From Escherichia coli (GTDB lineage: Bacteria > Pseudomonadota > Gammaproteobacteria > Enterobacterales > Enterobacteriaceae), in NCBI RefSeq assembly GCF_003334315.1, contig NZ_QOWR01000033.1: a stretch of 50,012 bases of DNA; one strand, 5' to 3'. This document shows, piece by piece, positions 22,078-22,738 of the stretch. Under the pieces are notes generated by a model that was not told the origin of the DNA, ran no database searches, and saw nothing but the letters and a program-made list of their open reading frames with translations. The stretch's first letter is position 1, and every line of letters begins with the position of its first letter. Both the position numbers and the translations under genes were made by a program.

Positions 22078-22629
22078 TAGCGCTATTTTCAATTTTTTTG
22101 CTGAAATGGCGCATGCACACTCTCACGCATTATAGATGCGGCGTTAATCCCGCCAGGAGTGTTGTTTAATAAATTGAACTATTTCTGCATTGAAGGATCA
22201 ACTTACGCATTCGCTGACAACGCAGGCACTCTCCTGGCTAAGCAGAAATTCAGAGTAACCAACTGGCACTTTTACAACAATTTTATTATCAGTTGCGGCT
22301 CCATGACTTTCTGGTGGGATAACAAAGCAATTAAGGCGTGGTATTGTAAGTATCCCGCATAATCATGCTAGTAACATTTGTCCCCCATGTAACCTAATTA
22401 AGGCAACTTCCGCTCTTCGCTCACAGTGAACCTCCATGTTTGTAAACCCGTATATTTCGTTTTTTAAGTGGTCATTCAGATACGGATTTTCACTTCTCTT
22501 GGCTGTGCATGACTATGCTGCATGAAATTGCATGATCGTTTGAGGATCGTTTTTGCTGAGGCCCCCCAGAACTGGCGGGCTTTCGCTTATGTCATGCAGG
22601 TGCATGAAAATCACTGCATAAAGCGGGCA

Positions 22630-22648
22630 GGCGTGGCGGGGATACGAG
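22630..22648. other. Candidate cos cohesive-end site (ggcgtggcggggatacgag)
   Basis: Shares GGCGTGGCGGGGA with the 186/P2 cos overhang as remembered; followed by GCGCGCT..GA; lies in a 660-bp non-coding gap at the expected genome-end position. Confidence 0.5.
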
Positions 22649-22738
22649 CGCGCGCTTGATGTCATATTTCACTACTAAGCATAATGCGCCTCCATTCTTG
22701 CAAAGGAACAATGATTTACTTATCTTGTCCATAGGATT

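What the first reader, a model, noticed from the sequence alone, without database searches (positions are those of the whole stretch)
22078..22738. Non-coding gap containing the probable cos site separates two cargo islands
This 660-bp stretch has no credible ORF and a more host-like base composition than the AT-rich cargo on either side. It contains ggcgtggcggggatacgag, which resembles the P2/186 cohesive-end sequence, followed by GCGCGCT..GA. In the packaged genome the three-gene operon would then be at the left end and DarTG at the right end, so the defence cargo would be the first and last DNA in the virion.
Basis: partly seen in the sequence, partly recalled or inferred. Interest (0 to 1): 0.35.

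Follow-up and report, generated by a model that had tools for sequence, protein, structure and literature searches.

The report
P2-family prophage cos packaging site
The gap holds the DNA-packaging (cos) site of a P2/186/Fels-2-type prophage, sitting as a sharply bounded 151-bp conserved block between two swappable anti-phage gene islands; this arrangement is already described for this phage family, so the finding is correct but ordinary.

Summary
GGCGTGGCGGGGATACGAG lies at 22630-22648 and occurs once in the window. It is identical to the annotated (putative) cos of Salmonella phage SEN8 and to the same position in Fels-2. It matches 186 cos at 15/19 bases and P2 cos at 14/19.

It sits in a 151-bp block (22505-22655). 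That block is conserved across about 125 unrelated loci and present in about 1270 of 5426 complete E. coli genomes. Conservation drops to random on both sides of it. The block shares its layout with P2, 186 and P4 cos.

- **Left of the block:** DarT/DarG plus an IS903-like transposase stub.
- **Right of the block:** the three-gene Rst_3HP defence system, then portal Q and terminase P.

Both islands are occupied in 46 of 78 related loci. This is the gpA-gpQ, cos-adjacent hotspot of Rousset et al. 2022.

One addition: variants of the cos block travel with the left island and never with the right one. The window itself is a chimera whose crossover maps to 22612-22654, across the cohesive end. This fits exchange of genome ends at cos. 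Physical ends remain unmapped.

The parts
22505..22655 (+). cos module: a conserved packaging-signal block running from -125 to +26 relative to the first base of the cohesive end.
   Evidence: In 125 unique loci carrying the exact 19-mer, per-column conservation rises from about 0.35 to above 0.9 at 22505 and returns to about 0.35 after 22655. BLAST matches in phages and E. coli genomes end at the same edges. GC is 55%. The window differs from the consensus at 8 sites, all of them polymorphic elsewhere.
22630..22648 (+). Predicted 19-nt cohesive-end sequence, GGCGTGGCGGGGATACGAG.
   Evidence: Unique in the window. Identical in Fels-2, SEN8, MLG42 and 813R9. Matches 186 at 15/19 and P2 at 14/19, aligned to their annotated cos.
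22649..22655 (+). CGCGCGC, the conserved right flank of the cut site and the last conserved bases before the right cargo island.
   Evidence: Conservation is 0.88-1.00 here and then falls to random. GCGCGC is shared with P2, 186 and P4.
22506..22535 (+). Distal cluster of three (T/C)GCATG repeats, a candidate terminase-recognition site analogous to cosB.
   Evidence: TGCAT starts at 22506, 22519 and 22529. The same triple is aligned in P2, 186 and P4. With the two proximal copies there are 5 TGCAT in 125 bp, against a window mean of 0.14. This is the only one of 1996 bins with 5 or more.
22561..22580 (+). GC-rich palindrome, GCCC(C/G)CCAG-N-CTGGCGGGC, followed by TTTC.
   Evidence: Conserved in 120 unique loci. 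The window has a C-C mismatch at 22565/22576, as do 6 others. Palindromes occur at the same place in 186 and P4 but not in P2. It was not scored as a terminator, and the fold is no better than shuffled sequence (z = -0.5).
22594..22629 (+). Proximal boxes ATGCAGGTGCATGAAAATCACTGCATAAAGCGGGCA, immediately left of the cut. This is part of the P2/P4-shared cos core.
   Evidence: Near-invariant (0.93-1.00) and aligned with P2, 186 and P4. The literature describes a 55-bp P2/P4 cos core (PMC9594776, PMC2231350).
22157..22346 (+). Remnant of an IS903-group (IS5-family) element: left inverted repeat plus the first 37 codons of the transposase. It is part of the left cargo island.
   Evidence: 73% nt identity to IS903. 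22/37 aa identical, E=4e-16. phrog_2262 transposase, E=4.8e-7. RefSeq pseudogene in strain 2018-11-3CC.
22078..22156 (+). Non-coding sequence downstream of DarG.
   Evidence: No ORF or RNA family hit. Co-inherited with DarTG at 99% identity in other E. coli.
22347..22504 (.). Unassigned AT-rich spacer forming the tail of the left island.
   Evidence: 40.5% GC. Identical in DarTG-island strains L009 and L136. Not conserved in other cos loci.
22656..22738 (+). Leader of the 3HP operon, with one promoter-like site (22656-22685).
   Evidence: Promoter-like match at 9/12 positions, no more than chance. Identical in the 3HP strain GB089.
20124..22504 (+). Left cargo island, at the right end of the packaged genome: DarT (20520-21101), DarG (21106-22077) and the IS remnant.
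   Evidence: PADLOC DarT E=1.3e-36 and DarG E=1.4e-80. The backbone sequence ...AACGAG..CGAGGCGT(T/A)AG, which directly precedes the cos block in the left-empty phage 813R9, lies at about 20100-20123 in the window.
22656..25684 (+). Right cargo island, at the left end of the packaged genome: Rst_3HP genes Hp1 (22739-23836), Hp2 (23838-24962) and Hp3 (24940-25641), plus a terminal hairpin at 25646-25663.
   Evidence: PADLOC Hp1 E=7e-64, Hp2 E=2e-47, Hp3 E=1.5e-8. No conserved non-coding sequence lies upstream of the Q stop codon.
25685..28482 (-). Portal Q (25685-26719) and large terminase P (26716-28482).
   Evidence: phrog_68 E=6e-175 and phrog_3746 E=4.5e-160.
30537..31187 (+). Small terminase subunit (gpM homologue), the presumed reader of the cos block.
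   Evidence: phrog_74 E=1.4e-88.
17054..20052 (+). Replication endonuclease gpA (17054-19468), a small ORF, and a DinI/Tum-like gene (19819-20052). This is the backbone to the left of the hotspot.
   Evidence: phrog_91 E=3e-289 and phrog_189 E=1.5e-30.

Best explanation
Window 22505-22655 is the cos site of an apparently complete P2-family (186/PSP3/Fels-2-like, Peduoviridae) prophage.

Inferred from the P2/P4 paradigm: after excision and replication, terminase (gpM + gpP, both encoded in the window) recognises the (T/C)GCATG-repeat block to the left of the cut. It then makes staggered nicks on either side of GGCGTGGCGGGGATACGAG, giving 19-nt 5' cohesive ends.

Only 125 bp to the left of the cut and 7 bp to the right of the 19-mer are under constraint. 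Everything beyond those edges is free for cargo. A DarTG + IS-stub island therefore abuts the left edge, and the Rst_3HP system abuts the right edge. These become the right and left termini of the virion DNA.

The rest of the 'gap' (22078-22504 and 22656-22738) is untranslated cargo-island sequence, not part of cos.

The cos core also acts as the joint at which the two genome ends are reassorted between phage lineages.
For: **Shown by tool results:**
- The 19-mer is unique in the window. It aligns with the annotated cos of P2 and 186 and the first 19 nt of the linear P4 record, with shared flanks AAAGCGGGC(A/G) and (C/T)GCGCGC and shared TGCAT repeats.
- It is identical to the 19-mer annotated as putative cos in SEN8.
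- The conserved block has sharp edges at -125 and +26 in 125 unique loci. It is present in 1270 of 5426 complete E. coli genomes, with matches ending at the same edges.
- The synteny is gpA-DinI-[cargo]-cos-[cargo]-Q-P, and the head, tail, terminase, integrase and repressor genes tested are present.
- The window's block carries no substitutions at invariant positions.
- Cargo spacing varies on both sides. The cos-to-Q distance is 157-182 bp in 7 of 97 loci (as in P2 and 186), 271 bp in one, and 550-4245 bp in the other 89. The DinI-to-cos distance is 202-207 bp in 21 of 86 loci and 469-4199 bp in the rest. Both sides are filled in 46 of 78 loci.
- Linkage: 15 of 18 multi-member left-flank types have a single cos-block type despite 2-9 different right flanks. 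In all 8 right-flank types that are joined to different left flanks, the block type follows the left flank.
- Pairs sharing only the right flank show 22 block mismatches on average, close to the 24.8 of random pairs. Pairs sharing only the left flank show 1.7.
- The window is identical to strain 2018-11-3CC up to 22654 and to strain GB089 from 22612 onward.

**From the literature:** the gpA-gpQ hotspot adjacent to cos, and a three-gene system with no predicted domains that was validated against P1 (PMC9122126).
Against: - No physical end mapping exists for this prophage. In the papers I could find there is none for this cos variant either; the SEN8 cos is 'putative' and assigned by annotation.
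- Positions 14-19 of the cohesive end differ from P2 and 186, so the exact nick positions are inferred by alignment only.
- Inducibility of the prophage is untested, and its att sites were not resolved. Only a 14-bp repeat was found.
- The assignment of the TGCAT repeats to terminase binding is an inference from conservation.
- The loci used for the conservation and linkage analyses were selected by an exact match to the 19-mer, so invariance of those 19 bases is by construction.
- The IMG/VR sample is the first 120 hits of a capped scan.
Confidence: 0.9

Rival explanations
1. The gap is just an intergenic regulatory spacer (DarTG terminator plus 3HP promoter), and the resemblance to P2/186 cos is fortuitous.
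For: One promoter-like site lies at 22656-22685. The gap lies between two co-oriented operons.
Against: The promoter count equals the chance expectation and no terminator was found. The 151-bp block is conserved in more than 1200 E. coli genomes and 125 diverse loci regardless of which genes flank it. It aligns along its length with experimentally defined P2 and 186 cos regions and with the P4 terminal region.
Confidence: 0.01
2. It is a genuine cos sequence, but in a defective or cryptic prophage that is no longer packaged. The 'first and last DNA in the virion' picture would then be hypothetical for this element.
For: Inducibility was not tested. The att sites were not resolved. The cargo load between gpA and Q (about 6.2 kb) is near the maximum of the sample, 6.3 kb. 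The palindrome carries a C-C mismatch.
Against: All core genes tested are full-length with strong profile matches. The cos block has no change at any invariant position, and identical blocks occur elsewhere. The int-to-ogr span is about 34.6 kb, close to P2 (33.6 kb) and SEN8 (35.2 kb).
Confidence: 0.07
3. A sub-rival on mechanism. The linkage break at cos reflects ordinary RecA-type homologous recombination confined to the longest identical tract (the roughly 40-bp invariant core), rather than trans-annealing and ligation of cohesive ends from two co-resident phages.
For: Diverged blocks differ at about 15% of positions to the left of -14. The core (-13..+26) is therefore the only tract long enough for efficient homologous exchange.
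Against: This cannot be separated from end-annealing with sequence data. Both models predict a joint within -3..+24. The end-joining idea was raised as speculation in the 2021 preprint of Rousset et al..
Confidence: 0.5

Closest known systems
cos sites of coliphages P2, 186 and satellite P4 (19-nt 5' cohesive ends; Ziermann & Calendar 1990, as cited in PMC9122126, PMC9594776 and PMC2231350)
   Same: - Same position, between the replication side and portal Q.
- Same first 13 nt of the overhang as 186 (GGCGTGGCGGGGA).
- Same flanks, AAAGCGGGC(A/G) and GCGCGC.
- Same distal triple and proximal TGCAT boxes.
   Different: - Positions 14-19 of the overhang are TACGAG rather than AAGCAT (186) or AAGCAC (P2).
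- P2 and 186 have only about 165-175 bp between cos and Q, whereas here 3.0 kb of cargo is inserted.
- P2 lacks the GC palindrome.
cos of Felsduovirus/Elveevirus phages (Fels-2, SEN8, RE-2010, Yersinia MLG42, E. coli vB_EcoM-813R9)
   Same: Identical 19-mer and about 90% identical 151-bp block. Cargo between cos and Q is also present in Fels-2, SEN8 and 813R9.
   Different: The cargo content differs. In all of these records the cos is 'putative' or left unannotated.
P2 gpA-gpQ defence hotspot (Rousset et al. 2022, PMC9122126; 2026 preprint 10.64898/2026.02.27.708500)
   Same: Same locus. It is described as adjacent to cos and rich in defence systems, including a validated three-gene system with no predicted domains. 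PADLOC's Hp1-3 models match the window's operon.
   Different: The papers treat gpA-gpQ as one hotspot. Here it resolves into two sub-sites that abut a 151-bp cos block, with cos-block variants linked only to the left one.
Lambda cos (cosQ-cosN-cosB)
   Same: A nicking site plus an asymmetric, one-sided recognition region for the small terminase. This is my own knowledge of lambda and was not tested here.
   Different: No sequence similarity. A 19-nt rather than a 12-nt overhang. P2-type phages are reported to package from monomeric circles (PMC2231350). The recognition block lies on the side that becomes the right end of the genome.

Membership tests
P2-family (Peduoviridae) cos site | A 19-nt cohesive-end sequence homologous to P2/186/P4 cos. 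| tested here: met
   15/19 identical to 186 and 14/19 to P2 in register. Identical to the annotated putative cos of SEN8.
P2-family (Peduoviridae) cos site | Conserved flanking packaging signal (the shared P2/P4 core and upstream repeats). | tested here: met
   Flanks and TGCAT boxes align with P2, 186 and P4. The block at -125..+26 is conserved in 125 loci.
P2-family (Peduoviridae) cos site | Syntenic position between the gpA/early region and portal Q, with cognate terminase genes. | tested here: met
   gpA, DinI, Q, P and M were identified by PHROGs. The order is the same as in P2, 186 and Fels-2.
P2-family (Peduoviridae) cos site | Cleavage by terminase to give 5' 19-nt overhangs at the virion DNA ends. 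| not testable with these tools
   No read or end data are available. Papers found only predict cos for this variant.
P2 gpA-gpQ defence hotspot (Rousset 2022) | Variable gene content between conserved gpA and gpQ, adjacent to cos. | tested here: met
   97 right-flank types and 63 left-flank types among 114 loci. The left and right islands occur separately at 99% identity in different E. coli strains.
P2 gpA-gpQ defence hotspot (Rousset 2022) | Cargo matches models of known defence systems. | tested here: met
   DarT, DarG, Hp1, Hp2 and Hp3 matched PADLOC models.
P2 gpA-gpQ defence hotspot (Rousset 2022) | The cargo confers phage resistance. | not testable with these tools
   Only the literature result is available, for the homologous three-gene system against P1.
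IS903-group (IS5 family) insertion sequence | Two terminal inverted repeats and an intact transposase of about 307 aa. | tested here: not met
   Only the left inverted repeat and 37 codons remain (22157-22346). It is a remnant, not an element.
Intrinsic terminator (for the 22561-22580 palindrome) | A stable GC stem followed by a U-run. | tested here: inconclusive
   Not called by the scan. Fold z = -0.5. Relatives have a perfect 9-bp stem plus TTTT.

The most novel reading that the evidence does not exclude
The cohesive-end core of cos is the physical joint at which P2-like phages reassort their two defence-loaded genome termini.

The right-end unit (left cargo plus the 125-bp recognition block) and the left-end unit (right cargo plus the 3' part of Q) behave as separate linkage groups that meet within -3..+24 of the cut. 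The window itself is such a chimera, with its crossover at 22612-22654.

If this arises by trans-annealing of cohesive ends between co-infecting or co-induced phages, followed by a backbone crossover, it would give sequence evidence for a mechanism raised only as speculation in the 2021 preprint of Rousset et al. It would also explain why defence hotspots sit at cos in both P2 and P4.
Probability: 0.35. Interest if true: 0.5.

Novelty: already known. Interest (0 to 1): 0.2.

Why it matters
For this window the result is mainly an annotation.
- It fixes the packaging site and defines the 151 bp that must be kept.
- It delimits the two defence islands, DarTG and Rst_3HP.
- It predicts the virion termini.

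More generally, the sharp -125/+26 boundaries give a minimal cos cassette for Fels-2-type transducing vectors. The one-sided linkage of cos variants offers a cheap, testable handle on how P2-family phages swap defence cargo. A 2026 preprint (10.64898/2026.02.27.708500) says these recombination processes 'still need to be elucidated'.

Tried and rejected
- **RNA families:** an Rfam scan of 19000-26000 at E<=1 found nothing.
- **Promoters and terminators:** the scan found no terminator, and promoter-like sites were at the chance level.
- **Hairpin:** the 22540-22600 fold is no more stable than shuffled sequence, so I do not call it a terminator.
- **Short ORFs in the cos block:** some phage records annotate these as 'hypothetical protein'. 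I rejected them as coding because variable sites show no codon periodicity. My 'intact ORF' test was too strict, because the stop codons lie in the variable flank.
- **Papers not held:** Ziermann & Calendar 1990 and Christie & Calendar 2016 could not be read. The extent of the experimentally defined minimal cos and the packaging direction are therefore not cited.
- **Packaging polarity:** a search for the 1974 paper on the location of P2/186/P4 DNA ends in phage heads gave nothing usable.
- **End mapping of this variant:** searches found only predictions.
- **att sites:** only a 14-bp repeat was found, so the exact prophage ends are unresolved.
- **Source genome:** no complete RefSeq E. coli genome carries both islands in this form, so the source strain was not identified.
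- **Neighbouring proteins:** PADLOC gave no hit for ORF 20106-20348 or for the 561-aa protein at 47049-48734.

Full report
**1. What is in the sequence**

The 19-mer ggcgtggcggggatacgag is at 22630-22648 on the + strand and is followed by CGCGCGCTTGA. The core GGCGWGGCGGGGA occurs once in the 50-kb window, against 0.06 expected by chance. The only ORFs of 40 aa or more in 22078-22738 are four short ones of 45-67 aa.

Base composition:

| Region | GC |
|---|---|
| Whole gap | 43.7% |
| DarTG | 32.2% |
| Three-gene operon | 35.0% |
| 22505-22655 | 55.0% |
| gpA | 53.1% |
| Q+P | 54.6% |
| Rest of the gap | 35-41% |

Only 22505-22655 matches the phage backbone.

**2. Genomic context**

The window carries an apparently complete P2-family prophage. 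Identifications come from PHROGs unless stated otherwise.

| Feature | Coordinates (strand) |
|---|---|
| Integrase | 12256-13386 (-) |
| Repressor | 13704-14279 (-) |
| CII-like regulator | 14647-15162 (+) |
| Dam methylase | 16140-17057 (+) |
| Replication endonuclease gpA | 17054-19468 (+) |
| DinI/Tum-like gene | 19819-20052 (+) |
| Portal Q | 25685-26719 (-) |
| Large terminase P | 26716-28482 (-) |
| Scaffold | 28625-29458 (+) |
| Major capsid | 29475-30533 (+) |
| Small terminase | 30537-31187 (+) |
| Head-tail adaptor (gpL) | 31220-31747 (+) |
| Tape measure | 41848-44925 (+) |
| gpD | 45404-46504 (+) |

An ogr-like small zinc-finger ORF follows gpD, read directly from the sequence at about 46595. 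The gene order and the DinI/Tum gene place the prophage with 186, PSP3 and Fels-2 rather than with P2 itself.

PADLOC identifies the flanking AT-rich genes:
- DarT (E=1.3e-36) and DarG (E=1.4e-80) on the left.
- Hp1, Hp2 and Hp3 (E=7e-64, 2e-47 and 1.5e-8) on the right. I read these, from my own knowledge of DefenseFinder naming, as the 'Rst_3HP' system.

Rousset et al. 2022 describe a three-gene system with no predicted domains, taken from this hotspot, that protects against P1.

**3. The cos identification**

I aligned the circular junctions of P2 (NC_001895), 186 (NC_001317) and P4 (NC_001609). The P2 and 186 records annotate their experimentally known cohesive ends; the P4 record is linear and begins with the same 19 nt. 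The window shares all of the following with them:
- The 19-nt position: 15/19 identical to 186 and 14/19 to P2.
- The left flank AAAGCGGGC(A/G).
- The right flank (C/T)GCGCGC.
- A proximal (G/C)TGCAT(G/T)AAAA box at about -30.
- A distal cluster of three TGCAT repeats at about -125 to -95.

TGCAT occurs five times in the 125 bp left of the cut, against a window mean of 0.14 per 125 bp. This is the only one of 1996 bins with five or more.

The 19-mer is identical in Fels-2, Yersinia phage MLG42, E. coli phage 813R9 and Salmonella phage SEN8. The SEN8 record is linearised at this sequence and annotates it as 'putative cos'. No paper I could find maps the ends of this variant experimentally.

**4. 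The extent of cos**

An exact-match scan of IMG/VR returned 120 loci. Anchored on the 19-mer, the 125 unique sequences show about 0.35 majority-base frequency (random) up to 22504. The frequency is 0.8-1.0 from 22505 to 22655, and it is random again from 22656.

BLAST matches against phages and against 1270 of 5426 complete E. coli genomes end at the same edges.

The cos module is therefore 151 bp: 125 bp to the left of the cut, the 19-mer, and 7 bp to its right. The window's copy differs from the consensus at 8 positions, all of them polymorphic elsewhere, and identical copies exist. Variable sites show no codon periodicity and no Rfam family matches.

A GC palindrome at 22561-22580 is conserved, with one mismatch in the window. 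It has counterparts in 186 and P4 but not in P2. It does not score as a terminator, and its role is open.

**5. The rest of the gap**

- **22157-22346** is a stub of an IS903-group element: the left inverted repeat plus 37 codons of the transposase. RefSeq annotates it as a pseudogene in strains with the same island.
- **22078-22156 and 22347-22504** are unassigned. They are inherited together with DarTG at 99% identity.
- **22656-22738** is the 3HP leader and is identical in a 3HP-carrying strain.

About two thirds of the 'gap' is therefore cargo-island sequence.

**6. Two cargo islands**

In the left-empty phage 813R9, the backbone motif ...AACGAG..CGAGGCGTTAG directly precedes the cos block. 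In the window a near-identical motif (...CGAGGCGTAAG) lies at about 20100-20123. The left island is therefore about 20124-22504 and abuts the block. On the right, no conserved non-coding sequence precedes the Q stop codon, so the island runs from 22656 to 25684.

Spacing across the related loci:
- **cos to Q:** 157-182 bp (empty, as in P2 and 186) in 7 of 97 loci, 271 bp in one, and 550-4245 bp in the other 89.
- **DinI to cos:** 202-207 bp in 21 of 86 loci, and 469-4199 bp in the rest.
- **Occupancy** among 78 loci with both gpA and Q visible: both sides filled in 46, right only in 25, left only in 4, neither in 3.

The window's total gpA-to-Q spacing (3164 + 3039 bp) is near the sample maximum of 6327 bp.

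This is the gpA-gpQ, cos-adjacent hotspot of Rousset et al. 2022. Those authors treat it as a single hotspot.

**7. An additional result: linkage breaks at the cos core**

In E. coli RefSeq genomes, 19400-22657 (DarTG + IS stub + cos) recurs at about 99% identity next to other right islands. Separately, about 22660-25700 (3HP) recurs at about 99% identity next to other left sides. No genome has both in this form. One strain, Br_178_kylling, combines DarTG with a diverged 3HP.

Base by base, the window is identical to strain 2018-11-3CC up to 22654 and to strain GB089 from 22612 rightward. GB089 differs at 13 sites within the cos block to the left of that point. The chimera's crossover therefore lies in 22612-22654, which contains the cohesive end.

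Across the 114 loci that have 300-bp flanks on both sides:
- Pairs sharing only the left flank differ at 1.7 block positions on average.
- Pairs sharing only the right flank differ at 22.
- Unrelated pairs differ at 24.8.
- The rightmost mismatch in right-sharing pairs lies between -30 and -4 in 15 of 17 pairs.

When flanks are grouped into types:
- 15 of 18 multi-member left types have a single block type, despite 2-9 different right types.
- In all 8 right types that are joined to different left types, the block type follows the left type.

The block also stays with the left cargo when the 3' end of gpA differs, while the right cargo stays with the 3' end of Q. These pair counts are small, and the identities are ungapped.

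What is shown is that the two prospective genome termini are separate linkage groups meeting inside the invariant core. The mechanism is inferred. Two mechanisms fit:
- Trans-annealing of cohesive ends followed by a backbone crossover. This was raised as speculation in the 2021 preprint of Rousset et al..
- Homologous exchange confined to the only long identical tract.

**8. Verdict**

The feature is the ordinary cos site of a very common prophage family, located in an already described defence hotspot. Novelty is low.

What remains inferred:
- The exact nick positions.
- Whether this prophage is inducible.
- Which end is packaged first.

I could not retrieve the primary P2 cos papers.

Noticed in passing
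window 22157-22346: Decayed IS903-group (IS5-family) stub: the left inverted repeat plus the first 37 codons of the transposase. It sits inside the 'non-coding' gap and is co-inherited with the DarTG island in several E. coli strains.
   Followed up: yes
window 22612-22654; loci L009, L010: The window is a recombinant of a DarTG-type left end and a 3HP-type right end. The crossover interval spans the 19-nt cohesive end. Across 114 loci, cos-block variants are linked to the left flank only.
   Followed up: yes
window 19469-25684: The gpA-to-Q spacing (3164 + 3039 bp) is near the maximum seen in 78 related loci (6327 bp). This suggests the cargo load is close to a packaging limit.
   Followed up: partly
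L136 (E. coli Br_178_kylling, NZ_CP182383.1), locus 5122-10190: This strain has the same DarTG island and cos block next to a diverged three-gene operon. The BLAST match to the window (93% overall) runs through cos and the first part of Hp1, to window 23496, and then stops. This may be a chimeric 3HP variant.
   Followed up: no
window 22561-22580: A conserved GC palindrome lies inside the cos block and is followed by a T-run in relatives. Palindromes occur at the same position in 186 and P4 but not in P2. The window copy has a C-C mismatch shared by only 6 of 120 unique sequences. Its function is unknown.
   Followed up: partly
window 20106-20348: An 80-aa ORF at the start of the left island, upstream of DarT, has no PHROG or PADLOC match. 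It is unclear whether it is a gene.
   Followed up: partly
window 47049-48734 (-): A 561-aa protein just beyond the ogr-like ORF matches phrog_4489 (unknown function) over its full length at 1295 bits, but has no PADLOC match. It may be further cargo at the att-proximal end of the prophage.
   Followed up: partly
window 25646-25663: A perfect hairpin, GGCGGTATTCATACCGCC, lies between the convergent Hp3 and Q stop codons. It is probably a bidirectional terminator.
   Followed up: no
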